NCBI GenBank assembly: GCA_018664115.1
Contig: JABJOX010000004.1
Location: 10,089-74,088 of the forward strand
Length of the DNA stretch: 64,000 nt
DNA from: Candidatus Woesearchaeota archaeon
GTDB lineage: Archaea > Nanobdellota > Nanobdellia > Woesearchaeales > GW2011-AR9
Reading direction: 5' to 3'
Below the pieces are notes generated by a model. That model did not search any database. It was given only the letters and a program-made list of their open reading frames with translations, and was not told the DNA's origin. The position numbers and the translations under genes were made by a program. Each line of letters starts with the position of its first letter. The first letter of the stretch is position 1. Positions 15,102 through 33,575 of the stretch are shown piece by piece.

Positions 15102-16019
15102 ATGTCTCTGATTATAATAATCTTTATAAATTACCTATTAATCATAACACTAATGTTACATAAACTTATGAATAAATATAATCGGTTTTCATTATTTCGT
15201 TATTTATATCATGGTTTTTTCCGGTTGTACTGTGATCATGTTAGTGATTACGTGATGATATCTTTTCCTAAAAGTGGCCATACTTGGTTAAGAGTTATGC
15301 TTGCCAAAGCATTTTCACTTCATTATGGTCTTTCTTCTCTTAATCTTGATCTTATTTTAATGGCAAAAGAAAAAAAAGGGATTCCAAAAATTGCTATTTA
15401 TCATGAAATATCTCCATTATTCTCAGTTAACTTCAGTTTAAAAAATAAAAAATTTTTGGGTTCATACGCAGAATCTGAAAAGGTTTTCATACGCACTCCT
15501 CTTAAAAAGAAAAAAATTATTTTTCTTGTACGAGACCCCAGAGATGTTGTAGTGTCGTTATTTTTTCATTTGACAAAGCGAAACAATTTTTATTTTAGAA
15601 ATGAGATGTCTCATTTTCTTAAAGAACCATTTAGTCTTACTAAAATCTTAAATTATATGAATCTTTGGTGTAAGGAAATGCAACGACGCCCAAATGAATT
15701 TTTATTTATTCGTTATGAGGATATGAAAACAAATACTGCAGAACAGTTAAGAAGAGTATTAGATTTCTTGGAAATAAATGTATCATATGATATTTTGAAT
15801 GAAGCTGTTGCTTTTGGTTCAATTGATAACATGCGTAAGATGGAAAAATGCAATTTGTTTGCCGATTATCGTTTGCAAGCAAAAAATCCAAGTGATCCTG
15901 AATCTTATAAAGTAAGAAAAGCTAAAGTGGGTGGTTATACTGATTATTTAAATCCTCAAGACTTGGAATATATAAATTTACGAATAAGTAAAGAGCTAAA
16001 TTCTGTATTTGGATATTAA
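15102..16019 (+). CDS. PAPS-dependent sulfotransferase with N-terminal membrane anchor
   Basis: 5'-PSB motif ISFPKSGHTWL (PKSGTTW-like) and 3'-PB motif VRDPRDVVVS (RDPxDxxVS). Hydrophobic N-terminus MSLIIIIFINYLLIITLML. Confidence 0.8.
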   Translation: MSLIIIIFINYLLIITLMLHKLMNKYNRFSLFRYLYHGFFRLYCDHVSDYVMISFPKSGHTWLRVMLAKAFSLHYGLSSLNLDLILMAKEKKGIPKIAIYHEISPLFSVNFSLKNKKFLGSYAESEKVFIRTPLKKKKIIFLVRDPRDVVVSLFFHLTKRNNFYFRNEMSHFLKEPFSLTKILNYMNLWCKEMQRRPNEFLFIRYEDMKTNTAEQLRRVLDFLEINVSYDILNEAVAFGSIDNMRKMEKCNLFADYRLQAKNPSDPESYKVRKAKVGGYTDYLNPQDLEYINLRISKELNSVFGY

Positions 16020-18895: not shown

Positions 18896-19615
18896 ATGGA
18901 TCAAAAAAAACATATTATAACTATAGATGGTTCAGGTTGGACTGGCAAATCTTCTACTGCAAAAGCATTAGCAAGAATTCTTAACTTTAAGCATATTAAT
19001 ACAGGCTCAATGTTTAGGGCTGTAGCTTGGAAAGCAAAACAATTAGGTGTTTTATTAGAAGACAATCAGGAAATAATAAAAATTACTAAAAATATGGTGA
19101 TTAACTTTAGAATAGAAAATAATTCTCAGCAGATTTTTGTTGATGGAGAAAATATAACTGCATTTTTATTATCTTCTTCATTGGTACCTTTAGCAGGAAA
19201 AGTTGCTCAAATTCCCGAAGTAAGAAAAGTTCTTTTGGAGCTTCAAAGGAAAATGGCAAAGGAAGGAAATGCTATCTTCGAAGGAAGAGACATGGGAACA
19301 GTTGTTTTTCCTAATGCTGATTGGAAATTTTATCTTGAAGCGTCTGTGCCTATTAAGATTAAAAGATTTCTGAAGATGCTTTCAAATGAAGAAAAAAATA
19401 AATATACTCTTGAAGAAGTAAAAAAGATAATAGAAGAAACAGACGAAAAGGATAAAAATAGAGAATTTGCTCCATTAAGAAAACCAAACAACGCAATCTT
19501 TTATGATAATAGTGAAAGTCCAACCCCTGAACAAGATGCAATTGTATTATGGTATTATATCACCCATCAAAAAGAAATTATTGATAATGCTTTAATTTTA
19601 CAATCTAGATTATGA
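18896..19615 (+). CDS. cmk: Cytidylate kinase (bacterial-type CMP kinase)
   Basis: ITIDGSGWTGKSSTAKALARILNFKHINTGSMFRAVAWKA. This matches the Cmk N-terminus pattern IDGPxGxGKxT...LDTGAMYRAVA. Confidence 0.75.
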   Translation: MDQKKHIITIDGSGWTGKSSTAKALARILNFKHINTGSMFRAVAWKAKQLGVLLEDNQEIIKITKNMVINFRIENNSQQIFVDGENITAFLLSSSLVPLAGKVAQIPEVRKVLLELQRKMAKEGNAIFEGRDMGTVVFPNADWKFYLEASVPIKIKRFLKMLSNEEKNKYTLEEVKKIIEETDEKDKNREFAPLRKPNNAIFYDNSESPTPEQDAIVLWYYITHQKEIIDNALILQSRL

Positions 19616-20328
19616 ATGAAACAAAAACATTAACAACAAAAGAACTTAGAGTTAAAGGAAGAAAAAAATGCTGGAGTCCATCCCAACGTTTTTGGATGGA
19701 AGTTTCTCTTTATTTAACTACACCGTTCTTAAGAACTTCCATTACTCCTAATATGATTACTGTTACTTGGATTATTTTAGAGATTTTTGCATTTTATCTT
19801 TTTACTTTGGGCGAATATTGGATTAATGTTCTAGCTGTAATTTTGTTCAATTTTATTGCATTAATTGGGGATCATATTGATGGTAATCTTGCAAGGATGA
19901 AAGAAAAGTTCAGTTTACTGGGACCTTATTTAGAGCAGTTAGGAATTTTCTTTGGTACACCTTTAATTTTTCTAGGATTAGCGATTGGAAATTATTTTCG
20001 TTATCAAAATTTTCTTTTTTTAATAATTAGTCTTGTAGGGGTATTGTTTTGGCTCTTTGAGAAGATTATTAGAATAAATCCTGTTTGGTTCAGTGAGAGG
20101 CAAGAAGAAATAGTAAAGAAGTTTTACGTTAAAGCATCATTTAGATCCGCTTCAAAGACAAGAATATTTTTTGAGATATTTCGTAGAGGGCAACCTTTTA
20201 ATTTCCTTTTCTTTTGTGTTGTTTTTGATTATACTCAACTTGCATCTTTGGTATATTCTTTTCTTTTCCTTTTTGAGTTTTGTAGAAAACTTTATATTAA
20301 TATAAAGAATCTAAATAAAAAAGTGTAA
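19612..20328 (+). CDS. CDP-alcohol phosphatidyltransferase-like integral membrane protein (divergent motif)
   Basis: GDHIDGNLAR...LLGPYLEQLG fits the D-x2-D-G-x2-A-R part of the CDP-OH phosphotransferase signature. Multi-TM, 238 aa, ATGA overlap with cmk. Confidence 0.5.
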   Translation: MNETKTLTTKELRVKGRKKCWSPSQRFWMEVSLYLTTPFLRTSITPNMITVTWIILEIFAFYLFTLGEYWINVLAVILFNFIALIGDHIDGNLARMKEKFSLLGPYLEQLGIFFGTPLIFLGLAIGNYFRYQNFLFLIISLVGVLFWLFEKIIRINPVWFSERQEEIVKKFYVKASFRSASKTRIFFEIFRRGQPFNFLFFCVVFDYTQLASLVYSFLFLFEFCRKLYINIKNLNKKV

Positions 20329-20385
20329 AGATGCATGATTTGAATTCTAACTTTTTCTTTTATAATATCTCAAAAAAATTTATCA

Positions 20386-21108
20386 TTAAAAATCGTCTAC
20401 TTGTGAAAATACAGATTTTTCATTAGCAATATATTGGGTAATTATTTTTCTTACTAGTTCTAGAAAAAAGAATAAAGTATAGAGGATTAATGTGTAGTTT
20501 GGGTATCCAAAAACAACTCCCCAAAACAAAATATTGAAAAAGTGTTCTAGTCTAAATAGGGCAAAAACATTATAAATTAGTTTATGTTGGAATCTTAAAA
20601 GAGACTTTTTCCCAGTATCACTAATTAAGTTTCTTTGTTCTTTTGGATACCACATTGGATTAAGCGTTATTGCTTTATTCAGTAAAAAGAATATTACTGC
20701 TAAGATTCCGTAGAGCAAGTAAATTGCATTATTATACCACCGAAATACTCCAATTGAAAATGTAAGTAATAAAATTGAGTTGGCAAGATAGTGACCAAGC
20801 TGATCAAGGTAAATTCCATTAATGGAAAATTGTTTTCTATAACGGGCAACAATGCCATCACTACAATCTATAATAAAGAATGCTTGAAAAAATATAAGGG
20901 AGATAATCATAGTTAATTGATCTCCTGTTGCTAGAAATAATGCCGAAATTATTTGTCCAATAATCCATATTATTGTAATTTGATTCGGAGTTAAAGGAGT
21001 ATAAAGAAATAACTTTGCTGGATAATAAGCTAAATTATTCATCAACCGATAAATTGGGTCTCCTCTCTTTGCATTTGCTTTTTCTTTAAGCTCACGAATC
21101 GTCGGCAT
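20386..21108 (-). CDS. CDP-alcohol phosphatidyltransferase-like integral membrane protein (paralog, convergent)
   Basis: IIDCSDGIVARYRKQFSINGIYLDQLG gives D-x2-D-G-x2-A-R...G-x3-D. Multi-TM, 240 aa. Confidence 0.55.
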   Translation of the reverse strand: MPTIRELKEKANAKRGDPIYRLMNNLAYYPAKLFLYTPLTPNQITIIWIIGQIISALFLATGDQLTMIISLIFFQAFFIIDCSDGIVARYRKQFSINGIYLDQLGHYLANSILLLTFSIGVFRWYNNAIYLLYGILAVIFFLLNKAITLNPMWYPKEQRNLISDTGKKSLLRFQHKLIYNVFALFRLEHFFNILFWGVVFGYPNYTLILYTLFFFLELVRKIITQYIANEKSVFSQVDDF

Positions 21109-21176: not shown

Positions 21177-23978
21177 TTATTGTCCTTTTAAGAATAATAT
21201 TAATTGATTAACACTTTCATTTAAACTAATTTGTTGGGTTTCTAACTTTATGTCTGGACTATCTGGAATTTCATAAGGATTACTTTCTGCAACACCAATA
21301 AAATTATTAATTTCTCCGGCTAATGCTTTTTTGTAAAGTCCTTTCGTATCCCGCCTGATACATTCATCTAAGGAAGCATTGATGAATAGTTCTTTGAAGT
21401 TTTCTCCAACAATTAAACGGACCATCGTCCGATCTTCTTTGTAAGGAGAAATTATTGGTACTAAAACAAAATCATTATTTGCTGCTCTTTCTTTAGCTAA
21501 TTCCGCAATCAAACGATTATTTTCTCTTATATCCTCTCTAGAGAATCCAAGATCTTTGTGTAACGTATCTCTAACAACATCACCATCAAGAATTTCAACT
21601 TTATTTCCAAGACTTTCAAGTTTCTTTTTAAGTTCTAAAGCAATTGTTGTCTTTCCAGATCCAGACAAGCCTGTAAACCAGATTACTTTTCCTTCTTTGT
21701 TAGATATGTTATTTATTTTATTATATTCATTATTTTCATTTGGCTCAACTTTCTTCATTTCTTCTCTAACAAAAACTTCTTCTCCATTTTTAATACTTTC
21801 AACAATTAAACTGGAGACTTCTGGACGCATAAACCACTCTGGTGGAACTTGACCCAATTCAAATCTTTTTCTTGCTTCTGTTCCACTAATATGAAGCGGT
21901 TCTAACTCTTCGCCACTCTCCGTTTCTTTTTCGTGGACATGATGATTCAATTTATCCGAGTAGAATACTTTTCCATATTTTATAGGCTTAATCCCGATTT
22001 CAGGAAACTTATCAAAGATTTGATGCGAAGCATTAGGATGGTAGTAATCGCCTACACCTGTATGATCTCTCCCAACAATAAAATGGCTACACCCAAAATT
22101 TTTCCTGCAGAGAGCAGTAAATATAGCTTCTCTGGGACCAGCATAACGTGAGAATGTTGAAAATGTTGAAAATACTACTTTATTTTTTGGATAAATATTT
22201 TTCATCATTTCTTCATAACTTTTAATTATAAATTTAGAATTATAATCCCCAACTTTCTTTTTCCCAATAATGGGGTGAACAAATAATCCATCACAATTTT
22301 CTTTTTTCATTGCATCTAATTGAATGAACTCATGACCGCGATGAATAACATTTCTAGTATGGAAACCCACTATTTTAACCCACCCTCGATCTTCAAATAA
22401 TTTTCTGACTTGCTTTGGAGTTAGTTCATATTCTTTATGTTCAGATTCTCTTCTTTTAATCAAATTAATTTTTCCTCCAAGCAAAACAGGTTTCATATTA
22501 AAGACTATTTTTGCCCCAGGATGATTTTTATCATCAGTACAATACAATTTACTGATTACTTCTTCTTTATCATAATTATACTTTTCTTTAACTTTCATCG
22601 TTGCAACAATTTCATTCTTATCATTGGTTAAAATAATAGTTTCATCTAAATCAATTTGACTAGCAATCTCTTCAGAAACATCTAAAGTTACTGGTAATGG
22701 CCATACAACCCCATTTTTAAGTTTCATATGATCTAAGATCCCTTGAAAATCTTCTTTACCCATAAAACCTTCAATCGGACTAAATGTCCCAATAGCTATC
22801 TGTTCTACATCCATTAATTGTTCAGCATTCAATTTAATCTTTTTTAAAGAGTTTACATTTTCTGGAATCTCTTTGACAAATCTTTCAACTAATTTTCCTC
22901 CGTGTGGTTCAATTAAAGAACTAGTTTGAGAATTATCAGAGAGGTATTCATGATGGCTAATATTCTCAATATCATCGACATACTTTGAATGTTCAATCAG
23001 TTTATTTAACATATTAACACATTCCATTGGGTTTTCACCAATGGCTGTTTCTGCAGAAAGGATTAACCCACTTGCTCCGTCAATTATTGTATTTATTACA
23101 TCATTAACTTCTGCCCTAGTTGGTTTTTTATTAACAATCATAGATTCTAAAAGATTAGTTGCAATATATACAGGAGTATTTCTTTCTTTGGCTTTTTTAA
23201 GAATAATCTTTTGAATCAGAGGTATTTTTTCAATGGGGACTTCTTTACTCATATCTCCCCGATCCATCAATACAGCATCAGATTTCTCAATAATTTTATC
23301 AATGTCATGTAGTGATTCTTCTGCTTCAACTTTAGAAATAATATACATAGCATTATTAGTTACTTTCCTAACTTCATCAAGATCTTGGCTTTTTCTGACA
23401 AAGGACAAAGCTAAATGGCCAATCCCCTCTTCTAGCCCAATATTGATTGATTGTTTATCCTTTTCAGATAATACTGGTAAATGATAAACTTTATTGTTTC
23501 CAGGACTAACAATTACTGCTTTATTGTTTCCTAAATTACCTTCAGTCATTATTCTTGCAGAAATGTATCCCTCTTTAATAGTTGAAATATCAGAAATTTT
23601 AAGTATTAATGTATCAAAATCTACAAAAAGTAAATCACCTGTCTCTAATTGTTCTAAAATGTGCCCTGGAGTTAAACAGATCTCTTTTTTGTTTCCTATA
23701 ATTTTATTGCCATAAATTTTAATAATCTCGCCTTCATTATAATGGATGATTTTCTCCTCTAAATCACCAGTTCTTATTTGTGACCCCTCTGTATCAATAA
23801 TAAATGGAATATCAACTTTCTTTGCAATTTTAATGAAATATCTCAAGTCTTCAATACTAGAATGAGACATATTAATTCTAACAAAATCTACGCCCTTATC
23901 TTTTATTTTTTTCAAATCTTCTTCAGTATTTGTTGCTGGACCTAAAGTAACAATAATCTTAACATTTTTTTCTTCCAC
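21177..23978 (-). CDS. Tri-domain protein: pyruvate-kinase-like TIM-barrel domain + ATP sulfurylase + APS kinase (PAPS synthase with N-terminal PK-like module)
   Basis: N-terminal: KIIVTLGPATNT...VRINMSHSS...DTEGSQIRTG...ISKVEAEES...MDRGDMS...IATNLLESM (PK barrel motifs, no C-terminal regulatory domain). Middle: LIEPHGGKLV...GFHTRNVIHRGHE...GRDHTGVG...ISGTEARK (ATP sulfurylase). C-terminal: VIWFTGLSGSGKTTIA...ILDGDVVR (APS kinase P-loop). Confidence 0.85.
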   Translation of the reverse strand: MEEKNVKIIVTLGPATNTEEDLKKIKDKGVDFVRINMSHSSIEDLRYFIKIAKKVDIPFIIDTEGSQIRTGDLEEKIIHYNEGEIIKIYGNKIIGNKKEICLTPGHILEQLETGDLLFVDFDTLILKISDISTIKEGYISARIMTEGNLGNNKAVIVSPGNNKVYHLPVLSEKDKQSINIGLEEGIGHLALSFVRKSQDLDEVRKVTNNAMYIISKVEAEESLHDIDKIIEKSDAVLMDRGDMSKEVPIEKIPLIQKIILKKAKERNTPVYIATNLLESMIVNKKPTRAEVNDVINTIIDGASGLILSAETAIGENPMECVNMLNKLIEHSKYVDDIENISHHEYLSDNSQTSSLIEPHGGKLVERFVKEIPENVNSLKKIKLNAEQLMDVEQIAIGTFSPIEGFMGKEDFQGILDHMKLKNGVVWPLPVTLDVSEEIASQIDLDETIILTNDKNEIVATMKVKEKYNYDKEEVISKLYCTDDKNHPGAKIVFNMKPVLLGGKINLIKRRESEHKEYELTPKQVRKLFEDRGWVKIVGFHTRNVIHRGHEFIQLDAMKKENCDGLFVHPIIGKKKVGDYNSKFIIKSYEEMMKNIYPKNKVVFSTFSTFSRYAGPREAIFTALCRKNFGCSHFIVGRDHTGVGDYYHPNASHQIFDKFPEIGIKPIKYGKVFYSDKLNHHVHEKETESGEELEPLHISGTEARKRFELGQVPPEWFMRPEVSSLIVESIKNGEEVFVREEMKKVEPNENNEYNKINNISNKEGKVIWFTGLSGSGKTTIALELKKKLESLGNKVEILDGDVVRDTLHKDLGFSREDIRENNRLIAELAKERAANNDFVLVPIISPYKEDRTMVRLIVGENFKELFINASLDECIRRDTKGLYKKALAGEINNFIGVAESNPYEIPDSPDIKLETQQISLNESVNQLILFLKGQ

Positions 23979-24092: not shown

Positions 24093-24794
24093 TCACTTCT
24101 CCCAAAACAATTCTCTATTTACAAAAGCTCTCACTAATTTATCATTAAAAGCAGTATCACCTAATTTTATTCTTTCTGGGTGCCAAGTTACTGCTGCAAT
24201 TGGATAATCCGGATGATAAGCAGCTTCTATTGTTTCATCACTAGAACAGACAGCAAACGCTTTTAATTGCGAAGATAATATTTCGGGAAGAATTGCTTGG
24301 TTATGATAGGAATTCACTAAAACTTTTTCCAAGCCAAAAAATTTTTTAGTTTGATCATCAGTTAAAATAACCTCATGTTCGGCGGCCACATGTTTAACTT
24401 GGCTGTTTGTTTCATCTTTTATACTTTGTAATAAACTACCAGCAAAATGAACATTAAGATAATGTAACCCCCGACAAATACCTAAGATAGGAAGTTTTTT
24501 TTCAATTGCGTAATCGACAATTGCTTTCTCAGTTCTCTCCCGATCTAATGACCATTTGTTAGGAAATTTCATTTCTTGTCCGTACAAGCTGGGATGGACT
24601 CCGTTACCTCCGGTTAGAATTACACCTTCAACACCTAACTCTTCTAAATATTCTGCTGGATTTTCTAAAGAATTAGGAATTGGCACTAAAGTAATTCCAA
24701 ATTTAGGATAATATTGAGTATATTCTGTTTCCAGGATATCAACTGTTCCACCATATTCTGTTTCCAGTTGTTTTGTAGTAATTGCAACTCTCAT
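24093..24794 (-). CDS. Class-I glutamine amidotransferase-like / peptidase C26 (gamma-glutamyl hydrolase-like)
   Basis: KKLPILGICRGLHYLNV (Cys nucleophile) and NSYHNQAI (His). Paralog of 9671-10378. Start is 2 nt after the stop of the 1515-aa gene. Confidence 0.7.
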   Translation of the reverse strand: MRVAITTKQLETEYGGTVDILETEYTQYYPKFGITLVPIPNSLENPAEYLEELGVEGVILTGGNGVHPSLYGQEMKFPNKWSLDRERTEKAIVDYAIEKKLPILGICRGLHYLNVHFAGSLLQSIKDETNSQVKHVAAEHEVILTDDQTKKFFGLEKVLVNSYHNQAILPEILSSQLKAFAVCSSDETIEAAYHPDYPIAAVTWHPERIKLGDTAFNDKLVRAFVNRELFWEK

Positions 24795-24795
24795 T

Positions 24796-27700
24796 TTAAT
24801 CTAATAAGTTCAAATCAATAAACTTTTTAATTTCTCCGTTTTCAGTCCATTTAAGTGCATTTTCATAATCTTCATTTGTGTCAAATTCCATCCATCCCCG
24901 TTGAATCTTATTAGCCATTACTGTCCATCCATTATCAATCCAACTTTGAAGAAGATTAGTCATATTAATTTTTCTTACTGGCTTCCCATCAATTAAAGGT
25001 GTATCCCAATGTGAAGCTTTGATTTTCCTCCAGTGTTCCAAGACTTTTGGAACAAAATTTTTAGAGATGAAAGTTAAACTTGCATCTCTGCCATGTAATC
25101 TAGCTTCGTCAATAACATTTTCCTCTCCAATCTCAATAATAGAACCGTCTGGATTTAAAGTACAAGATTCAGAATCTTCTTTCCAATCACCATTACGGGC
25201 GGTCCAATAATCTTTATAATCAACATCAATTGCCTTACTAAGACTGAAATTTTCTTCCATAATTTGTTTAATAACTTTTGGTTCATGAATTGTGTCTGCG
25301 TAAGCAATTAATATGTCGCTACTGCCATCAAATTCTGCTTCTGCACAGAACAAAGAAGCAACCATATTTGTATTTTCCCAATCAGGATTATTATAATATT
25401 TAATTCCTGGGAAATTTATCTTTTCTGCGTTGAAACCGCGGACAATAGAGATATCAGTAAGGCCGGCTTTTTGAAATGTTTCAATTTGTCTTTGGAGAAG
25501 CGGTTTTCCTGCTAAAGGCAGTAATCCTTTCGGAAGAATTTCTGTATATTTATGTAATCTAGAACCTCGTCCAGCAGCCAAAATTATTACTTTCATTTTT
25601 TTATTCTTTAGTGTTTCATTTTCTTTATCTTCTTTTTTTTCATTACCTTTCAAAGTAGTAATCGGTCTAACCTGCAATAAATGTAGTTCATTATTATAAT
25701 AACACCATTCGCATTCAATTTCTTTGCCATAATCTTGCCGTAAACTTTCTCCTAATTGAACTAACTCTTTAATCTCATCTTCGTTAAGCACTCTGCCAGT
25801 CTTTTTAGAAACTTCTAATGACCCATCCATAATATAGGAGTAAGCTTCCCTTTCTTCATTAATTATATTAGCTTCAATTTCACTCCCATTGATAAAATAT
25901 TGATCAGGTTTGACTTTACCGGATACCACCGATTCACCAACACCAAAATTTGCATCAATCCAAATTCCTTCTTTCAAACTATCGCTAGGGTTTTGTGAGA
26001 ACAAAACCCCTGCTTTTTCACTTTGCAGAAATTCTTGTATAACAACAGAAATGTAAAACTTTTCTTGACTTATTCCTGATTGGTGAGCATAAAGCAAAAC
26101 ATTTTCTTTAAATGCAGAAGCAATACATTCTTTAATTGCTGAAAACAAGCTTTTTTCTTCTATTCCTAAGAGGGTCTTGAATTGGCCAGCAAAACTTGCT
26201 TTACTAGAATCTTCACTAGAGGCTGAACTTCTTACTGCTACCGCTTTTGTGTTTAATTGTTTAAACTGACCCAAAACTTCATTCTTGAATTCGTCGCTAA
26301 ATTGATAATCATTCACAAACTTTCGTAATGCTTTTAATTTTTCTTGTGATTGTTCTGGATAATTAAAATCAATGATGTAATCTTCTTTGTCGTTTAAGAA
26401 TGAATTAATAATTTGGTCATAAGCTCTTCTTGTTACGCTAAACGCTTTTGGAACATTATATCTCATCGAACATTTGGCAAGATTCTTTCCTTTCCCCCCT
26501 ACCAAAGAATATTCCTCTTCATTTATCTCATTTAGACTTGATGTGTATGGGATGCTTCTTAGAAAAAGACTTTTTTTAATTGTTATGAGGGGTTCTTTTT
26601 TATCTTCTGTTTTCTTTAAATCTATACCCTGAATATTTTTGGCTTTAAATTCTTCTGTTTCTCTTTTAGTTAATTTTCTAACAAATTTGTTATAAGTATC
26701 CACTTCAATAAAATCTCCTGTTTTAAAGAAACGTGTTGAGATTCTCGTTCCAACTAAACAAGGGATATTTAATTCTCTGGAAATAATTGCTGCGTGGCTG
26801 GTTATTCCACCTTCATCTGTAATTATTCCTTTAGTTTTGTGAAGAATGGAAACCATTGCTGGATGAGTCATTGTTGTAATATAAATGTCATCAGAGGTCA
26901 TTTCTTTTTTTGTTTTCATTAGCGATTTAATACTATCATCAGTTACTACTAAAGCTCTCCCTTTAACTCTTCCTAAATTTCCGACATCTCCACTTAACCC
27001 TTTAAGATTTTCTGGGATAGTATTAACTTCTTTTGAGTATTTTGGAATAAAGCTATACTCGGTAGATTCTGGGGATATTTCTATGTTAAAATATTGTAAT
27101 CTTTTCTTAACTTCTTCAGGAGTTAGTTTCTTATTTTCTTCTAAGAAATCTTTAACATCTTTTATCCTATAAGAAAACAAAAAGTCTTCAATATTCAGCT
27201 CTAATCTTTTTGCTATCTCTTTGAATAAACCTAAGAATAATAATTCATAACCTGCCCAGATATTTTTATTCTCTAACCTTATCAAAGCAATCTCTTGTAG
27301 ATAAAGGCATAGTTCTTTTAGTTTATTTGAACTTTGTCTGGCAAGACATTCTTCCTGTTTTTGCTTTAGAATCTTGCTTTCATTTATTGTTTTATTAATT
27401 TCATTTTCTAATTCTTGTGCATTAGTCTCGGAAATTTCGTTTTCTAAAAATTGATTGATAATTTCCCATGAATATGTGTTGATAAATCTCCAAGAATATT
27501 TTAATGCATACTCTTTAATGGCTTTTGGACCAACATTTATTTCCCTAATCAGTTTTAATTTGTCTTTTTTTTCTTTCAAAAATAAATCTTCTTTTGTTGG
27601 TGTTGTTAATAATTGTAATAACTCTTCTTTATTATCTGCAATAATCAAGGAAAGAATTCTGTCTTTTACTGCTTTTGTTGGTTCTTCTCGAGAGTATGGA

Positions 27701-29343
27701 AAGAATGAACCATTTTCCATCACTAAATTTATCAGTTGATTATAAATGGGAAATAGTTCTTTATTTGTTTTTAAAATATAATTGATATTTTTGTTTTTTT
27801 CATAAAATGAGAAAAACTTGGCGATTTGTTTTTTATTTTCTTCGACTACCTTTTCCTGTTCACTTTTATTGATTAATTTAAACCCTTCATAATTCCAGCG
27901 TTTAATATCTTCTTGATCAAAATAAACGGTGTGGTGTTTATCTCTAACTTCTGTAAAGATTTTCCCAATAATACTGTTACCAATTTGTTCCGGGAACATT
28001 ATGTATCTTAATGTGTGACATTCCAATGATTGTAATGATGTTGTTCCACCCCAACCATGGTATAAACTTGTAAATAAAGGTTTAACTTGAAAGATAATTA
28101 TTTCATTATTATTATCAATTACGAATTCAATCTTTAACTCTACTCTTGGAATTAATTCTTCAATTTCTTTTACTGCAAAGAATATTTGTTCGGCTTCTGG
28201 AAATAATTGAAACTCTCCTTTGAGTTTTACTTCCTCTAGATTCGAAACATTAATTGTCCCTTTACTTTCTTCTGCGATTGTTTCATCATTTTTACTTAGA
28301 GATGTGTAACTATAATTGATGATATATTTATTAGGATTATTTTTAATCAGGGCTGAACCTACCAGTTTAATATTGTTTGTTTGATTTTGCACCAATACTT
28401 GATGGAAAGAACTTTCTGGCGCTTTATTTTTATAAGAAGCGATGGTTTCATTAATTGCTTCTTCTACCTGAAGATTATCTTTTGGCTCTACATCCAACAA
28501 ACTTTTAAAACAACCACTTAACGTTCTTTCAGTCTGTTCATCAATTACAGAACTCCTAACCACAATTTTTTCTGGAAATTCTTCTTTAATTTTTTCCAAT
28601 ATTTGTTTTTTATCATTTTTCCAATCATTAATGGTAAAAGAAAACAGTTTTTCTACCTTTGATTTAGTTAAAATGGGTTGGAGTGTTTTTAATGTATCTG
28701 CTTTAGTTGAAATGATGTTTTTGTTTTTCCATTCTTTAGCAAAGTTTTCTTTTGTTTCATTATCCTCTTTATTTTCTTTAATTACTGAAGCAAAATGTTT
28801 AATATCCTTAAACTTATCTTTGTTTTCTAATAAGTAATTTATAATTTTAAAATTTGATAATCGTGAATAATAAGGGTGTTGTAATAATTTTCCACCAATA
28901 CTTTTAATGTACTCTGCTCCTGGAATATCTCCCCAGTTATCACCATGAATCAGAATTATTTCTGCATCTGGATATTCTTCATGGATTTTTTGCAGATTAT
29001 CTGTGGGGTCTCGATGATATTGAACTAAAACTCGATCTACAACTTTTAAATTTTCAATTACTGCTTTCCTTTCTTTTAAGTTTGAGATGGGCTTAACCCT
29101 ATATTCTTCCACTGCTTCATCAGTAAAAACCCCTATAATGTTATAATCAGAGACAGACTTAGCAAATTGGATAGACTGCAAATGCCCATAATGAAATAAA
29201 TCTCCTACTACTCCCACATAAGAGATCCGTTTAATTCCCGACTTTTTAATTTCTACATAATCTCCCTCTTGCATTTCAGAATTTTTAGGGATAGTTACAC
29301 ATAACTGATCATTAGATTTATTTTTCCATACAACTCTTTTCAT
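24796..29343 (-). CDS. Giant (1515 aa) multidomain enzyme: N-terminal HIGH-motif cytidylyltransferase + PEP-utilising phosphohistidine domain + PPDK/PEP-synthase ATP-grasp (PPDK_N) domain + MobA/GlmU-like NTP-transferase domain + uncharacterised C-terminal region
   Basis: N-terminal: VGVVGDLFHYGHLQSIQFAK (TagD/ECT-like HxGH). About aa 770-880: GLSGDVGNLGRVKGRALVV...GGITSHAAIISRELNIPCLVG (PEP-utilisers mobile domain). About aa 900-1150: VPKAFSVT...AVAVRSSASSEDSSKASFAGQFKT (PPDK_N hallmark). About aa 1200-1330: MKVIILAAGRGSRLHKYTEILPKGLLPLAGKPLL (NTP_transferase). Confidence 0.8.
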   Translation of the reverse strand: MKRVVWKNKSNDQLCVTIPKNSEMQEGDYVEIKKSGIKRISYVGVVGDLFHYGHLQSIQFAKSVSDYNIIGVFTDEAVEEYRVKPISNLKERKAVIENLKVVDRVLVQYHRDPTDNLQKIHEEYPDAEIILIHGDNWGDIPGAEYIKSIGGKLLQHPYYSRLSNFKIINYLLENKDKFKDIKHFASVIKENKEDNETKENFAKEWKNKNIISTKADTLKTLQPILTKSKVEKLFSFTINDWKNDKKQILEKIKEEFPEKIVVRSSVIDEQTERTLSGCFKSLLDVEPKDNLQVEEAINETIASYKNKAPESSFHQVLVQNQTNNIKLVGSALIKNNPNKYIINYSYTSLSKNDETIAEESKGTINVSNLEEVKLKGEFQLFPEAEQIFFAVKEIEELIPRVELKIEFVIDNNNEIIIFQVKPLFTSLYHGWGGTTSLQSLECHTLRYIMFPEQIGNSIIGKIFTEVRDKHHTVYFDQEDIKRWNYEGFKLINKSEQEKVVEENKKQIAKFFSFYEKNKNINYILKTNKELFPIYNQLINLVMENGSFFPYSREEPTKAVKDRILSLIIADNKEELLQLLTTPTKEDLFLKEKKDKLKLIREINVGPKAIKEYALKYSWRFINTYSWEIINQFLENEISETNAQELENEINKTINESKILKQKQEECLARQSSNKLKELCLYLQEIALIRLENKNIWAGYELLFLGLFKEIAKRLELNIEDFLFSYRIKDVKDFLEENKKLTPEEVKKRLQYFNIEISPESTEYSFIPKYSKEVNTIPENLKGLSGDVGNLGRVKGRALVVTDDSIKSLMKTKKEMTSDDIYITTMTHPAMVSILHKTKGIITDEGGITSHAAIISRELNIPCLVGTRISTRFFKTGDFIEVDTYNKFVRKLTKRETEEFKAKNIQGIDLKKTEDKKEPLITIKKSLFLRSIPYTSSLNEINEEEYSLVGGKGKNLAKCSMRYNVPKAFSVTRRAYDQIINSFLNDKEDYIIDFNYPEQSQEKLKALRKFVNDYQFSDEFKNEVLGQFKQLNTKAVAVRSSASSEDSSKASFAGQFKTLLGIEEKSLFSAIKECIASAFKENVLLYAHQSGISQEKFYISVVIQEFLQSEKAGVLFSQNPSDSLKEGIWIDANFGVGESVVSGKVKPDQYFINGSEIEANIINEEREAYSYIMDGSLEVSKKTGRVLNEDEIKELVQLGESLRQDYGKEIECEWCYYNNELHLLQVRPITTLKGNEKKEDKENETLKNKKMKVIILAAGRGSRLHKYTEILPKGLLPLAGKPLLQRQIETFQKAGLTDISIVRGFNAEKINFPGIKYYNNPDWENTNMVASLFCAEAEFDGSSDILIAYADTIHEPKVIKQIMEENFSLSKAIDVDYKDYWTARNGDWKEDSESCTLNPDGSIIEIGEENVIDEARLHGRDASLTFISKNFVPKVLEHWRKIKASHWDTPLIDGKPVRKINMTNLLQSWIDNGWTVMANKIQRGWMEFDTNEDYENALKWTENGEIKKFIDLNLLD

Positions 29344-30366: not shown

Positions 30367-31803
30367 TTAGATACTTTCCTCATTGTGAGTGTGGGCTTTA
30401 ACAAGATTGTAAAGTAACATTGTAACCGTCATTGGTCCGACTCCTCCTGGAACAGGAGTAATAAACGAAGTTTTTTCTTTAACATTCTCAAAATCAACAT
30501 CTCCAACAATCTTACCTTCTTCTGTTCGGTTCATACCCACATCAATGATTATTGCTCCTTCTTTAACCATTTCTGCAGTGAGTAATTTTTCTTTACCTAC
30601 TGCAACAACAATTATGTCTGCAGTTTTAGTATGTTCAGCAATATCTTTAGTTCTACTATGGGCCATGGTTACAGTAGCATTTTTCATTAACATCAATTGA
30701 GCCATTGGTTTTCCGACAATATTACTTCTCCCAATAATAACAGCTTTTTTTCCTTCTAAATCGAGATTGTAGTGTTCAATCATTTTCATTATTCCGTAAG
30801 GTGTAGCAGGAATCATATCTTTCTCTTCATCAGACAATCCTAAGAAAATTTTGCCCATATTTATGGGATGAAAACCATCCACATCTTTTTTCGGATTAAT
30901 ACTATCAATCACTTTATTCTCATTAATTTGTTTTGGTAATGGTAATTGGACAATAAATCCGTCAACATTTTCATCTTTATTTAGCTTCTCAATCAAACCC
31001 AACAATTCACTTTCTTTTGTTTCTTCATTTAGTTTGTAATGTCGCGCTTTTACTCCAATCTTTTCAGCAGTTTTAAGTTTTTTTTTAATATAAATTTTAG
31101 ATGCCGAATTTTCTCCTACAGAAACAATTGCCAATGTTGGTTTGTCTTTTAGCTTTTTTACTTTTTCTTTAAGTTCTATTAATATTCTCTCAGATACTTC
31201 TTTTCCCGATAATAATGGTCTCATTTTATTTTCTTTTTTATTCTGATTAGTTTTAATAATCCTCTTTTCTGTTATAATATAATCCACCGGCACATCATGG
31301 CTTTTAACTTTTATGGAATCAACTATCTGGAAATCGTAAGCAATTCCCACTTTAATTCCTTTAAAATCTTTAAGAAATCGGTCATAATAGCCTAAACCAT
31401 GACCCAATCTATTTCCAGCTAAATCAAAAGCAACTCCAGGAACAAAAACAATGTCAACCTCTTCTTTATTAATCTCTAAACAATTTTTCTTTGGTTCCAT
31501 GATTTCAAATGCGCCTTCTTCCAAATCTTCACTTAAATTATTTATTTGATAGATTTTCATTGAAAAATCATCTTTATTTGTTTTTGGAAGAATTACTTTT
31601 TTTACTTGGAAATTTAATAACGAATTCATTAAACCATTCAAGTTAGCTTCATTTCCTTTTTGATAATAGAACATTGTTGAATTAGATTGATTGAAAAAAG
31701 AAAATGAGGATATTCTTTCTATAATCTGTTTACTTTTTAACATTACTTCTTCATCACTCATAGAATCTCTTTCTAACTTAATATTTTCTCTTAATTCTTT
31801 CAT
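30367..31803 (-). CDS. folD: Fusion: 5-formyltetrahydrofolate cyclo-ligase (N-terminal) + bifunctional methylene-THF dehydrogenase/methenyl-THF cyclohydrolase FolD (C-terminal)
   Basis: N-terminal half has the MTHFS motif GNRLGHGLGYYDRF. C-terminal half MRPLLSGKEVSERI...VGENSASKIYIKKK...DGFIVQLPLP...GGVGPMTVTML matches FolD. Confidence 0.8.
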   Translation of the reverse strand: MKELRENIKLERDSMSDEEVMLKSKQIIERISSFSFFNQSNSTMFYYQKGNEANLNGLMNSLLNFQVKKVILPKTNKDDFSMKIYQINNLSEDLEEGAFEIMEPKKNCLEINKEEVDIVFVPGVAFDLAGNRLGHGLGYYDRFLKDFKGIKVGIAYDFQIVDSIKVKSHDVPVDYIITEKRIIKTNQNKKENKMRPLLSGKEVSERILIELKEKVKKLKDKPTLAIVSVGENSASKIYIKKKLKTAEKIGVKARHYKLNEETKESELLGLIEKLNKDENVDGFIVQLPLPKQINENKVIDSINPKKDVDGFHPINMGKIFLGLSDEEKDMIPATPYGIMKMIEHYNLDLEGKKAVIIGRSNIVGKPMAQLMLMKNATVTMAHSRTKDIAEHTKTADIIVVAVGKEKLLTAEMVKEGAIIIDVGMNRTEEGKIVGDVDFENVKEKTSFITPVPGGVGPMTVTMLLYNLVKAHTHNEESI

Positions 31804-32726: not shown

Positions 32727-33575
32727 ATGAAAGATATTATCGTTTTCACTCAGAATACAATGGCTTCTATAGTGGCTACAAGAGAAGTCTTAATAAATAA
32801 TTCAGACAGAATCAAAGCAATTGTCCTTGCCAGTCAATTTAAAGGAGAATCATTTACTGATCAACTAAAAGTTGCCTATAAACTTACAAAAAAATCTTCG
32901 TTTAGTTTTTTCTTTTACAAGTTATTAGAATCAAAAGTTTATAACTATCTTTTGTGGGGTCATAAATTAATAAAAACAAAAAATTATCAAAATGATTCTG
33001 CTAAAACTATTGAAGATCTCGCGGGCCAATATAATATTCCTATCATTAAAACAACCAACCTTAGTGATAATGATTTCTTAATTAACATTAAAGAATTAAA
33101 TCCAACATTTGTACTTTGTTTAGTGGCACAAATTTTGAGAAAGAATGTTTTTGAAACTCTTGGCAATAAGTTAATTAATGCTCATGGTTCTTATCTCCCA
33201 GAATATAGGGGTGCCGCTCAATATTTCTGGTATTTATTTAATGGGGATCGGCAATATGGGGTGACTGTTCATTTTATGGAAGCTGGATTGGATACTGGAG
33301 ATATTATTTTTCAAAGAAAATTTGATTATAATCAAAATGTCTCGATGTATGAATTACATCATAAATTAGCTACTTCATTTGGTTTTATGTTAAATGAGTT
33401 TATCAATAATTATGCTAATGACAATGACGACGATCATAATAATGAACTGATCTCATTTAAACAAGATGAAGAAAAAGCTACGATGACTAGGATGCCCACC
33501 AAAGAAGATTTTAGTCAGTTAAAGAAAAAAGGAAACAAGTTAATAACTTTTAAAGATTTTTTTAAATATATATAA
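32727..33575 (+). CDS. N10-formyl-THF-dependent formyltransferase (Fmt/ArnA-N/VioF-like sugar N-formyltransferase)
   Basis: Formyl_trans_N motifs: INAHGSYLPEYRGAA (H...SLLP..RG) and HFMEAGLDTGDII (catalytic Asp). Confidence 0.8.
   Translation: MKDIIVFTQNTMASIVATREVLINNSDRIKAIVLASQFKGESFTDQLKVAYKLTKKSSFSFFFYKLLESKVYNYLLWGHKLIKTKNYQNDSAKTIEDLAGQYNIPIIKTTNLSDNDFLINIKELNPTFVLCLVAQILRKNVFETLGNKLINAHGSYLPEYRGAAQYFWYLFNGDRQYGVTVHFMEAGLDTGDIIFQRKFDYNQNVSMYELHHKLATSFGFMLNEFINNYANDNDDDHNNELISFKQDEEKATMTRMPTKEDFSQLKKKGNKLITFKDFFKYI

What the first reader, a model, noticed from the sequence alone, without database searches (positions are those of the whole stretch)
24796..29343. 1515-aa multidomain enzyme with two nucleotidyltransferases flanking permuted PEP-synthase-like dikinase domains
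One uninterrupted ORF combines four recognisable modules. The first is a HIGH-motif cytidylyltransferase (GDLFHYGH, TagD/ECT-like). About 500 aa of unassigned sequence follows. Next comes a PEP-utilising phosphohistidine swivel domain (GGITSHAAIISRELNIPCLVG), then the ATP-grasp nucleotide-binding domain of PEP synthase/PPDK (AVRSSASSEDSSKASFAGQ). Then comes a MobA/IspD-like NTP-transferase (ILAAGRGSRL), and finally about 170 aa of unknown tail. In canonical PEP synthase/PPDK/rifampin phosphotransferase the ATP-grasp domain precedes the His domain. Here the order is reversed and no PEP/pyruvate TIM-barrel is visible. A dikinase core (X + ATP to X-P + AMP + Pi) sandwiched between two NTP-transferases suggests a self-contained phosphorylate-then-nucleotidylate machine making an NDP/CDP-activated small molecule. 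It would act in a cluster that also has CDP-alcohol-phosphotransferase-like membrane proteins and a cmk. I do not recognise this architecture as any described enzyme.
Basis: partly seen in the sequence, partly recalled or inferred. Interest (0 to 1): 0.9.

Follow-up and report, generated by a model that had tools for sequence, protein, structure and literature searches.

The report
Fused archaeal glutamine-kinase/cytidylyltransferase for phosphoramidate sugars
This 1515-residue Woesearchaeota protein is a gene fusion of the first two enzymes of the known Campylobacter phosphoramidate-donor pathway, and its working ATP-binding domain has moved to the far side of the phospho-carrier histidine; it is an interesting variant, not a new kind of enzyme.

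Summary
The ORF is real: 24796-29343, minus strand, 1515 aa, and the same sequence occurs on 16 public contigs.

Two 'unknown' stretches are now assigned:
- aa 200-430 is a second ATP-grasp, degenerate, in the canonical N-terminal position.
- aa 431-800 is a helical central domain.
- The 170-aa 'tail' is simply the rest of the C-terminal nucleotidyltransferase.

The protein belongs to the C. jejuni MeOPN donor pathway (Cj1415-Cj1418):
- ATP-grasp 1 matches the Cj1418 L-glutamine kinase family (PRK05849).
- The C-terminal NTase is a Cj1416-type phosphoglutamine cytidylyltransferase. It is 27% identical to Cj1416 and 45% identical to the NTase of a canonical bacterial cassette.
- The next gene is a Cj1417-type γ-glutamyl-CDP-amidate hydrolase.

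In relatives, kinase, NTase and hydrolase are separate adjacent genes. Here the first two are fused.

The central-His-ATP-grasp 2 core is not Cj1418-like. It belongs to an unnamed dikinase family that exists in both domain orders.

Likely function: L-Gln → phospho-Gln → CDP-Gln, which the neighbouring hydrolase converts to CDP-amidate for glycan decoration.

The role of the N-terminal HIGH-motif cytidylyltransferase is unresolved.

Verdict: new variant of a known kind; interest 0.5.

The parts
28774..29232 (-). N-terminal HIGH-motif cytidylyltransferase-like domain (aa 38-190; FHYGH at aa 50-54)
   Evidence: Pfam PF01467 E 2.3e-10. The closest solved structures are the Fom1 cytidylyltransferase domain 5x3d (E 3e-13), ECT 3elb and TagD 1coz. 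Of the columns conserved at 90% or more in the 980-aa family, 97% are kept in this subfamily and 100% in this protein.
28054..28746 (-). ATP-grasp 1 (aa 200-430): Cj1418/PRK05849-type nucleotide-binding domain with degraded catalytic motifs, probably vestigial
   Evidence: NCBIfam PRK05849 positions 7-219. It is 26% identical to C. jejuni Cj1418 residues 8-214. Only 54% (69% in this protein) of the family's conserved columns are retained. D270, S274, A276, V330, T333 and R421 are replaced in this protein, and E406 and Q419 are also lost in most subfamily members. The domain is missing entirely in relative P0278.
26944..28053 (-). Helical central domain (aa 431-800), the presumed acceptor-substrate site; motifs HGWGGTTSLQSLECHTLRY, HHTVYFD..D..RWN.EG, MENGSFFPYSR, RFINTYS, IRLENKNIWAGYE
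   Evidence: Many polar residues are invariant across the subfamily. AF2 pLDDT is 85-95. hhalign detects no homology to the PRK05849 central domain. It is about 30% identical to the central domains of unnamed ~800-aa dikinases of both domain orders. Together with grasp1 and the His domain it is collinear with rifampin phosphotransferase in Foldseek.
26659..26943 (-). Phosphohistidine swivel domain (aa 801-895), catalytic His850 in GGITSHAAIISRE
   Evidence: Pfam PEP-utilizers E 8e-20. The His motif aligns with the GGANSH His737 motif of the C. jejuni Cj1418 orthologue.
25609..26553 (-). ATP-grasp 2 (aa 931-1245): intact PEP-synthase/RPH-type nucleotide-binding domain, placed after the His domain
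   Evidence: Pfam PPDK_N E 2.8e-67, nearly full length. It is 31% identical to the RPH ATP-grasp in Foldseek. The motifs VRSSAS.EDS...SFAGQF, ANFGVGESVVSG and E.E.EW...LLQVRP are invariant in the subfamily.
24799..25596 (-). C-terminal Cj1416-type NTP transferase (aa 1250-1515; ILAAGRGSRL), the predicted CTP:phosphoglutamine cytidylyltransferase. Joined by the linker KGNEKKEDKENETLKNKK, after which the original start Met is retained
   Evidence: Pfam NTP_transf_3. Identity is 27.5% over the full length of Cj1416 (E 3e-24). Identity is 45% to the NTase of the canonical Lachnospiraceae cassette L009. It is a separate gene in L002, L007, L001 and L003-L008.
24093..24794 (-). Adjacent downstream gene: Peptidase_C26/GATase, the predicted γ-glutamyl-CDP-amidate hydrolase (Cj1417 type)
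   Evidence: The best NCBIfam hit is NF045546 'gamma-glutamyl-CDP-amidate hydrolase' (80 bits, below the cut-off of 250). Identity to the C. jejuni Cj1417 orthologue is 32.6% (E 3e-19). The catalytic residues are present (Cys in GICRG, His-Pro-Glu in WHPE). The gene is syntenic in all relatives.
21180..21716 (-). APS-kinase domain at the C-terminus of the 933-aa PK-PUA-ATP-sulfurylase-APS-kinase protein. It is the only candidate in the window for the Cj1415-type 3'-kinase step; this assignment is tentative
   Evidence: Identity to the C. jejuni Cj1415 orthologue is 37% (E 5e-19). It is the only APS-kinase-like sequence in the window. However, it passes the genuine APS-kinase model TIGR00455 and is fused to ATP sulfurylase.
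19612..21108 (.). Two divergent CDP-alcohol-phosphotransferase-family membrane proteins (19612-20328 +, 20386-21108 -), with cmk at 18896-19615. Possibly linked to the pathway; this is inferred
   Evidence: Pfam PF01066. The CAPT motif is incomplete. The family is enriched near HIGH-CTase-fused kinases, 10/26 versus 4/144 loci.

Best explanation
The gene encodes a multifunctional enzyme for the first steps of a phosphoramidate-donor pathway, of the type known from the Campylobacter jejuni O-methyl-phosphoramidate capsule modification.

**Proposed steps.**
1. ATP binds the intact C-terminal ATP-grasp 2. Its β,γ-pyrophosphoryl group is passed to His850 of the swivel domain. AMP and Pi are released and a phospho-His is left. 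This step is inferred from the dikinase family mechanism.
2. The swivel domain carries the phosphoryl group to the helical central domain. [quoted passage not shown] The substrate is inferred from the conserved gene partners.
3. The fused Cj1416-type NTase condenses phospho-glutamine with CTP, giving CDP-L-glutamine and PPi.
4. The adjacent C26 hydrolase releases glutamate, giving cytidine diphosphoramidate. This donor then decorates a surface glycan made by the surrounding glycosylation genes.

**Other points.**
- The N-terminal ATP-grasp 1 is a decaying relic of the ancestral Cj1418-type kinase.
- The protein arose by two events. First, the central and His part of a HIGH-CTase/Cj1418-type fusion was replaced by a 'permuted' dikinase core (central-His-ATP-grasp). 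Then the stop codon before the neighbouring NTase gene was lost.
- The HIGH-motif cytidylyltransferase is conserved and probably active, but its substrate is not established.
For: **Homology shown here.**
- Domains.
- The ~980-aa relatives are full-length PRK05849 members (856 bits against a cut-off of 501). They are 35.5% identical over the full length to the C. jejuni Cj1418 orthologue, which carries GGANSH with His737.
- This protein is 50-55% identical to those relatives over aa 1-428.
- The C-terminal NTase, the neighbouring C26 protein and the APS-kinase domain each match the C. jejuni Cj1416, Cj1417 and Cj1415 orthologues (E 3e-24, 3e-19 and 5e-19).
- The C26 protein's best named family is γ-glutamyl-CDP-amidate hydrolase.

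**Synteny shown here.**
- Kinase, NTase and C26 are adjacent in all 8 archaeal/Elusimicrobiota loci examined.
- In 80 bacterial genome loci, the NTase is present in 70, C26 in 70 and APS kinase in 64.
- In 80 metagenome loci, the NTase is present in 60 and C26 in 69.
- Subfamily members with the same rearranged core keep NTase and C26 directly downstream as separate genes (L002, L007).

**Degeneracy of grasp1 against integrity of grasp2:**. Grasp1 is lost altogether in P0278.

**Pathway chemistry from the literature:** PMC11800397, PMC6429109 and PMC10971088.
Against: - The acceptor-binding central domain is not detectably homologous to that of Cj1418/PRK05849 (hhalign). The whole protein scores only 172.6 bits on PRK05849, against a cut-off of 501. 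Glutamine specificity therefore rests on gene context, not on the kinase core itself.
- Stand-alone relatives of the permuted core lie in unrelated contexts (L011).
- There are two cytidylyltransferase domains where the known pathway needs one.
- No homologue of the C. jejuni MeOPN transferases or of the Cj1419/1420 methyltransferases is present, so the fate of the product is unknown.
- The C26 score is below NCBIfam's equivalog cut-off.
- The AF2 inter-domain geometry is unreliable (pTM 0.46).
- No biochemistry exists for any archaeal member.
Confidence: 0.65

Rival explanations
1. The architecture is the same, but the acceptor is different. Because the central domain was swapped, the dikinase core phosphorylates some other small molecule, for example an amino alcohol, a hydroxy-amino acid or a phosphonate-like head group. 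One or both NTases then make a CDP-X. The neighbouring CDP-alcohol-phosphotransferase-family proteins transfer this to a lipid or glycan, and cmk recycles the CMP.
For: - The central domain is unrelated to that of Cj1418.
- PGAP names the NTase 'phosphocholine cytidylyltransferase family'.
- Two CDP-OH_P_transf genes and cmk lie within 6 kb.
- CDP-OH_P_transf is enriched near HIGH-CTase fusions (10/26 versus 4/144).
- CDP-amino-acid donors used by phosphotransferases now have a precedent in CDP-threonine (bioRxiv 10.64898/2026.02.12.704994).
Against: - The C26 hydrolase, which needs a γ-glutamyl substrate, stays directly adjacent in every member of the rearranged subfamily (L001, L002, L007, window).
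- The NTase is 45% identical to the one in a canonical four-gene bacterial cassette.
- CDP-OH_P_transf is absent from most HIGH-fused loci of 14 kb or more in the metagenome set.
Confidence: 0.2
2. A housekeeping or resistance dikinase: a PEP synthase/PPDK or a rifampin-type antibiotic phosphotransferase that happens to be fused to nucleotidyltransferases.
For: The best NCBIfam and PDB matches for ATP-grasp 2 and the His domain are PEP synthase and rifampin phosphotransferase.
Against: - There is no PEP/pyruvate TIM barrel.
- All equivalog cut-offs are missed by a wide margin: 277 against 598 for PpsA, and 235 against 999 for RPH.
- The conserved operon partners are NTase and C26, inside a glycan-synthesis region.
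Confidence: 0.03
3. Artefact: a frameshift, a read-through error or a chimeric assembly joins two or three genes.
For: Homologues of the NTase part are separate genes in related genomes. Short cluster members of 266, 497 and 862 aa exist.
Against: - The identical 1515-aa product is called on 16 contigs from independent sources, and a second 1515-aa variant exists.
- The junction is an in-frame 18-residue linker followed by the retained start Met.
- The short members come from contigs of 2-4.5 kb, so they are probably cut at contig ends.
- The order of the parts matches the gene order in relatives.
Confidence: 0.03

Closest known systems
Campylobacter jejuni L-glutamine kinase Cj1418 (EC 2.7.3.13; NCBIfam PRK05849 family)
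   Same: - ATP-grasp 1 is homologous (26% identity, E 1e-10).
- The phosphohistidine motif is shared.
- The operon partners are the same (Cj1416-like NTase, Cj1417-like C26).
- Like Cj1418, it is a dikinase without a TIM barrel.
- Close relatives of the N-terminal 428 aa are bona fide full-length PRK05849 members.
   Different: - The central domain is not homologous.
- The PRK05849-type ATP-grasp has lost its conserved catalytic residues.
- A second, PEP-synthase/RPH-like ATP-grasp follows the His domain.
- There are extra N-terminal HIGH-CTase and C-terminal NTase domains.
- The size is 1515 aa against 779 aa.
C. jejuni CTP:phosphoglutamine cytidylyltransferase Cj1416
   Same: - Full-length homology to aa 1250-1494 (27.5% identity).
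- The GxGxRL signature is present.
- It sits next to the C26 hydrolase.
- It is 45% identical to the NTase of a canonical cassette.
   Different: Here it is covalently fused to the kinase. In every other locus examined it is a stand-alone protein of about 260 aa.
Rifampin phosphotransferase (RPH; PDB 5hv1, 5fbs)
   Same: - Best structural match.
- Grasp1, central and His domains are collinear with the whole of RPH (840-895 aligned columns).
- Grasp2 superposes on the RPH ATP-grasp (31% identity).
- It shares the three-domain, TIM-barrel-less swivel logic (PMC4844700).
   Different: - It misses the RPH equivalog cut-off (235 against 999 bits).
- The substrate domain and the genomic context differ.
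- The ATP-grasp is duplicated and relocated.
Unnamed ~800-aa PEP-synthase-like dikinases with the order central-His-ATP-grasp (e.g. P0294, P0313, P0395) and canonical-order relatives (P0288, P0295)
   Same: About 30% identity across aa 431-1231, including the central domain. The 'permuted' order is the same.
   Different: - They are stand-alone proteins with no CTase, NTase or C26 partners (L011).
- Their function is unknown.
- None reaches any NCBIfam cut-off.
Split two-component dikinases (phenylphosphate synthase type; HpeI, PDB 9goj)
   Same: An ATP-grasp module separable from the module carrying the His and substrate domains. 9goj is a structural match to grasp2 (PMC12167813).
   Different: Those are separate polypeptides that act on phenolic substrates.
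Fom1 (cytidylyltransferase domain fused to PEP mutase, PDB 5x3d)
   Same: It is the closest solved relative of the N-terminal HIGH domain (E 3e-13). It is also a case of a CTase fused to the first enzyme of a phosphorus-chemistry pathway.
   Different: The partner enzyme and the substrate (a phosphonate) differ.

Membership tests
L-glutamine kinase (Cj1418 / NCBIfam PRK05849) | Full-length match to the family profile above its curated cut-off (501 bits) | tested here: not met
   The score is 172.6 bits. Only profile positions 7-219 (ATP-grasp) and the His motif match. Relatives P0010, P0085 and the L009 protein score 855-1000 bits.
L-glutamine kinase (Cj1418 / NCBIfam PRK05849) | Conserved nucleotide-binding residues in the N-terminal ATP-grasp | tested here: not met
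   Only 54% (69% in this protein) of the columns conserved at 90% or more are retained. The VRSSA..ED....S.AG, GV.FT and E...Q.RP motifs are degraded.
L-glutamine kinase (Cj1418 / NCBIfam PRK05849) | Phosphohistidine swivel domain with a catalytic His (GGxxSH; His737 in the C. jejuni orthologue) | tested here: met
   GGITSH with His850; PEP-utilizers E 8e-20.
L-glutamine kinase (Cj1418 / NCBIfam PRK05849) | Family-specific central (acceptor) domain | tested here: not met
   hhalign between the subfamily and the PRK05849 family aligns only 53 columns of the His domain.
L-glutamine kinase (Cj1418 / NCBIfam PRK05849) | Genomic association with a Cj1416-type NTase and a Cj1417-type amidohydrolase | tested here: met
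   The NTase is fused and C26 is adjacent. The same holds in all loci of relatives.
L-glutamine kinase (Cj1418 / NCBIfam PRK05849) | ATP + L-Gln → AMP + Pi + N-phospho-L-Gln activity | not testable with these tools
   Requires an enzyme assay.
CTP:phosphoglutamine cytidylyltransferase (Cj1416 type) | Full-length homology to Cj1416 and to NTases of canonical Cj1415-1418-type cassettes | tested here: met
   Identity is 27.5% over residues 1-248 of the C. jejuni orthologue (E 3e-24). Identity is 45% to the L009 NTase, which lies in a cassette of PRK05849, APS kinase, C26 and NTase.
CTP:phosphoglutamine cytidylyltransferase (Cj1416 type) | N-terminal G-x-G-x-R-L nucleotide-binding signature | tested here: met
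   ILAAGRGSRL at aa 1255-1264.
PEP synthase / pyruvate phosphate dikinase | C-terminal PEP/pyruvate-binding TIM-barrel domain, and an equivalog score | tested here: not met
   There is no PEP-utilizers_C hit. The score is 276.8 bits against a cut-off of 598 for PRK06464.
Rifamycin phosphotransferase (RPH) | Equivalog-level match including the rifampin-binding domain | tested here: not met
   The score is 235.5 bits against a cut-off of 999. The similarity is structural only.
HIGH-signature cytidylyltransferase superfamily (PF01467) | HxGH motif and a Pfam gathering score | tested here: met
   FHYGH is present. The score is 41.3 bits against a cut-off of 21. The motif is invariant in family and subfamily.
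γ-glutamyl-CDP-amidate hydrolase (Cj1417; NF045546), for the neighbouring gene | Equivalog cut-off (250 bits) and a Cys-His-Glu triad | tested here: inconclusive
   It is the best-scoring family, but at 80 bits. The triad is present. Identity to the C. jejuni orthologue is 32.6%. The L009 cassette hydrolase also scores only 120 bits.

The most novel reading that the evidence does not exclude
DPANN archaea, and some Elusimicrobiota, run a variant phosphoramidate or phospho-amino-acid decoration pathway. In it, the universally fused HIGH-motif cytidylyltransferase makes a second CDP-activated intermediate. Divergent CDP-alcohol-phosphotransferase-family membrane enzymes, which lack the fourth catalytic Asp, then transfer the phosphoramidate or phospho-glutamine moiety from CDP-amidate or CDP-glutamine directly onto a lipid-linked or protein-linked glycan and release CMP, which the adjacent cmk recycles. 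This would replace the 3'-phospho-CDP-amidate/Cj1421-22 route. It would be the first use of a CAPT-family enzyme with a P-N donor. It would also be the first evidence of phosphoramidate glycans in archaea.
Probability: 0.15. Interest if true: 0.75.

Novelty: new variant of a known kind. Interest (0 to 1): 0.5.

Why it matters
- P-N bond-forming glutamine kinase chemistry has so far been characterised only in Campylobacter. Here the same cassette turns out to be very widespread. The cassette is also embedded in the N-glycosylation and surface-glycan regions of ultrasmall DPANN archaea. This predicts phosphoramidate-decorated archaeal surfaces.
- The protein is a natural experiment in dikinase modularity. 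A functional ATP-grasp has been moved to the other side of the swivel histidine, and the old one decays in place. It is still present here and already lost in P0278. This gives a direct test of how far the swivel domain can tolerate a change in topology.
- A single polypeptide that makes CDP-glutamine from Gln, ATP and CTP would be a practical biocatalyst for making phosphoramidate donors.
- The unexplained second cytidylyltransferase marks a step that the Campylobacter model does not account for.

Tried and rejected
1. **Raushel papers.** I tried to read the primary papers on Cj1415-1418 (PMC5629633, PMC5938751, PMC6643271, PMC5938747). None is held. The pathway statements therefore rest on later open-access summaries and on my own knowledge of the mechanism.
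2. **AFDB fold search.** The afdb50 library was unavailable, so only a PDB Foldseek search was run.
3. **PDB profile search of the central domain.** It found only matches to the His and ATP-grasp domains.
4. **Central domain as a diverged PRK05849 central domain.** Rejected by hhalign.
5. **HIGH-CTase as a replacement for the Cj1416-type NTase.** Rejected. Both are present in every HIGH-fused locus with enough flanking sequence.
6. **HIGH-CTase as a replacement for the Cj1415-type kinase.** Not supported. APS-kinase presence is 7/26 against 68/144 loci, p = 0.08, and P0085 carries both.
7. **Obligatory link between the HIGH-CTase and CDP-OH_P_transf.** Only partly supported. The family is enriched (10/26 against 4/144) but is absent from many long loci.
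8. **Search for C. jejuni MeOPN transferase and Cj1419/1420 homologues** in the window and the DPANN loci. None was found.

Full report
**1. Observation**

The window has about 30% G+C. It carries one uninterrupted ORF on the minus strand at 24796-29343, 1515 aa.

- CTP_transf_like, aa 48-136, with FHYGH.
- PEP-utilizers, aa 817-884, with GGITSH; the catalytic His is His850.
- PPDK_N, aa 946-1244, E 2.8e-67, nearly full length.
- NTP_transf_3, aa 1252-1364.
- No PEP/pyruvate TIM barrel.

The identical protein is in NCBI (Candidatus Woesearchaeota archaeon), JGI, ENA and Logan on 16 contigs, and a second 1515-aa variant exists. A chimera or frameshift is therefore excluded.

**2. What the 'unassigned' parts are**

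- Residues 207-425 match positions 7-219 of NCBIfam PRK05849. This is the ATP-grasp of a ~780-aa dikinase family.
- Residues 431-800 form a helical domain that AlphaFold models confidently (pLDDT 85-95).
- The C-terminal 'tail' belongs to the NTase. The C. jejuni Cj1416 orthologue aligns over its residues 1-248 with aa 1250-1494.

The true layout is:

HIGH-CTase | ATP-grasp 1 | central | His swivel | ATP-grasp 2 | NTase

Foldseek against the PDB gives rifampin phosphotransferase as the top hit, in two registers:
- Grasp1, central and His domains are collinear with the whole of RPH (840-895 columns).
- Grasp2 superposes on the RPH ATP-grasp (31% identity).

**3. Relatives and what they say**

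The homologue search found three layers.

- **Layer a: over 100 DPANN proteins of 950-1000 aa.** Several are named 'glutamine kinase' by JGI.
  - Their order is HIGH-CTase, ATP-grasp, central, His.
  - They are full-length PRK05849 members (856 bits against a cut-off of 501).
  - They align with the query only over aa 1-428, at 50-55% identity.
  - Some carry an additional N-terminal APS-kinase domain (P0085, P0099).
- **Layer b: eight proteins of 1130-1335 aa (P0002-P0009).** These equal the query minus the NTase.
- **Layer c: the query cluster itself.**

**4. The link to Campylobacter, tested directly**

A scan of species-representative genomes with a PRK05849 alignment found at least 558 relatives across Bacteria. 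One is a C. jejuni locus (L036). Its ORFs are a 779-aa dikinase carrying GGANSH with His737, a 200-aa GATase, a 253-aa NTase and a 170-aa APS-kinase-like protein. This is the Cj1418-Cj1415 order.

BLASTP results:

| C. jejuni protein | Compared with | Identity | E-value |
|---|---|---|---|
| Cj1418 | P0010, full length | 35.5% | 1e-144 |
| Cj1418 | query, grasp1 only (plus the His motif) | 26% | 1e-10 |
| Cj1416 | query aa 1250-1494 | 27.5% | 3e-24 |
| Cj1417 | downstream C26 gene (24093-24794) | 32.6% | 3e-19 |
| Cj1415 | APS-kinase domain of the 933-aa neighbour | 37% | 5e-19 |

Further support:
- The C26 gene's best NCBIfam family is 'gamma-glutamyl-CDP-amidate hydrolase'.
- The query NTase is 45% identical to the NTase of a Lachnospiraceae locus (L009). 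That locus holds a stand-alone PRK05849 kinase (1000 bits), an APS kinase, C26 and the NTase.
- According to the literature, Cj1415-Cj1418 make 3'-phospho-cytidine-diphosphoramidate from L-Gln, ATP and CTP. Cj1418 was the first enzyme shown to phosphorylate an amide nitrogen (PMC11800397, PMC10971088, PMC6429109).

**5. Synteny**

- In every archaeal or Elusimicrobiota locus examined, the kinase gene is accompanied by a ~262-aa NTase and a C26 gene (L001-L008, L010).
- In 80 bacterial genome loci the counts are NTase 70, C26 70 and APS kinase 64.
- In 80 metagenome loci the counts are NTase 60 and C26 69.
- In L002 and L007 the rearranged kinase, the NTase and C26 are consecutive separate genes. 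The window has the same order, with the first two fused through an 18-residue linker and the NTase start Met retained.

**6. The rearranged dikinase core**

- Columns at least 90% conserved in 111 layer-a proteins are 97% retained in the HIGH domain of the rearranged subfamily. In ATP-grasp 1 only 54% are retained (69% in the query).
- The invariant residues of the VRSSA..ED....S.AG, GV.FT and E...Q.RP motifs are mostly lost.
- ATP-grasp 2 keeps all of these motifs invariantly.
- P0278 (953 aa) has a CTase-like N-terminus joined directly to the central-His-grasp2 core, with grasp1 deleted.
- The central domain shows no detectable homology to the PRK05849 central domain (hhalign).
- An exhaustive profile search found ~800-aa stand-alone proteins with the same central domain in both orders. 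P0294, P0313, P0395 and P0399 have central-His-grasp. P0288, P0295 and P0296 have grasp-central-His. All are about 30% identical to the query, and none reaches a curated family cut-off.
- One stand-alone permuted member lies between NUDIX and UvrA genes, with no pathway partners.

The 'permutation' is therefore real, but it is inherited from a pre-existing and uncharacterised dikinase family. That core replaced the Cj1418-type central and His part. The old ATP-grasp was left behind.

**7. Mechanism proposed**

- Shown: domain identities, integrity or decay of motifs, and gene partnerships.
- Inferred: ATP is used at grasp2. His850 is pyrophosphorylated and then phosphorylated. The phosphoryl group is delivered to L-Gln at the central domain. 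The fused NTase makes CDP-Gln. The neighbouring C26 makes CDP-amidate.

Downstream steps are open:
- The only APS-kinase-like domain in the window belongs to a bona fide PAPS-synthase-like fusion.
- No Cj1421/22-type transferase or Cj1419/20-type methyltransferase is present.

**8. The second cytidylyltransferase**

The HIGH domain is strictly conserved, with HxGH invariant. Its nearest solved relative is the Fom1 CTase domain. It is never found in the 80 bacterial stand-alone loci (0/80). It always co-occurs with the Cj1416-type NTase, so it is not a simple replacement for that enzyme.

CDP-alcohol-phosphotransferase-family genes are enriched near HIGH-fused kinases. The count is 10/26 against 4/144 loci, Fisher p = 8.5e-7. 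The window has two of them plus cmk. However, the association is not universal, and phylogeny is not controlled for. The window's two CAPT-like proteins also lack the fourth Asp of the family motif.

I regard the substrate of the HIGH domain as unknown. The most novel reading, with a probability of about 0.15, is a second CDP-activated intermediate used by these membrane transferases.

**9. Comparison with the literature, and novelty**

- The library holds no description of this fused or rearranged enzyme, nor of a phosphoramidate pathway in DPANN.
- A preprint reports a structure-predicted MeOPN-like four-gene cluster in Borg elements of Methanoperedens (10.1101/2024.11.05.622173).
- Another preprint notes that CDP-glutamine is the only CDP-amino acid known besides CDP-threonine, and that it is not known to be a phosphotransferase donor.
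- Automated pipelines already attach the correct enzyme names.

The finding is therefore a new variant of a known kind. The pathway is known. The tri-/tetra-domain fusion is new, with a relocated ATP-grasp and an unexplained extra cytidylyltransferase.

**10. Scores**

- Interest: 0.5.
- Confidence in the main explanation: 0.65.

Noticed in passing
window 21177-23978 (-): A 933-aa single chain combines a pyruvate-kinase barrel, a PUA_2 domain, ATP sulfurylase and APS kinase. PK-PUA-ATP-sulfurylase fusions recur beside the glutamine-kinase cassette in other DPANN loci (L006 383-2647, L007 9306-11555). PEP-driven ATP regeneration for PAPS synthesis is a possible rationale.
   Followed up: partly
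window 30367-31803 (-) and 32727-33575 (+); L009 5079-6364: A 5-formyl-THF cyclo-ligase is fused to FolD, next to a formyltransferase. A Formyl_trans_N gene and a conserved family-less 186-aa protein also sit inside the bacterial phosphoramidate cassette of Lachnospiraceae. The formyltransferase is found in 7/80 genome loci and 12/80 metagenome loci. This hints at an N-formyl step linked to the pathway.
   Followed up: partly
window 19612-20328 (+), 20386-21108 (-), 18896-19615 (+): Two divergent CDP-alcohol-phosphotransferase paralogues have the motif DxxDGxxAR-x8-G-xxx-(E/D), but the fourth catalytic Asp is replaced by Ile or His. They are co-transcribed with, or adjacent to, cytidylate kinase.
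   Followed up: partly
P0294, P0313, P0395, P0399 (L011 3735-6167): A family of stand-alone ~800-aa dikinases has the domain order central-His-ATP-grasp, together with canonical-order sisters. There is no TIM barrel and no curated family. One lies between NUDIX and UvrA genes. The function is unknown.
   Followed up: partly
window 9671-10378 (+): A second Peptidase_C26/GATase-like gene lies about 14 kb from the first. It is more weakly related to Cj1417 (26% identity).
   Followed up: no
window 11438-12907 (+), 13854-15035 (+), 15102-16019 (+): A B12-binding radical SAM enzyme, a radical-SAM/SPASM enzyme and a Sulfotransfer_1 protein sit within the same glycan-decoration region. Sulfotransferase-like genes were detected in 4/26 HIGH-fused loci (window, L001, L006, L010) against 1/144 others (Fisher p = 0.002).
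   Followed up: no
window 35147-37099 (+), 37406-39133 (+), 46498-47448 (+), 51023-52330 (+): Large ORFs of 650, 575, 316 and 435 aa have no Pfam family. They lie amid glycosyltransferase and flippase genes.
   Followed up: no
L093-L172 (metagenome loci): In the metagenome set, most stand-alone PRK05849 loci lack a detectable APS-kinase-like gene (present in 3/63), against 64/80 in the genome set. The Cj1415-type step is therefore not universal.
   Followed up: no
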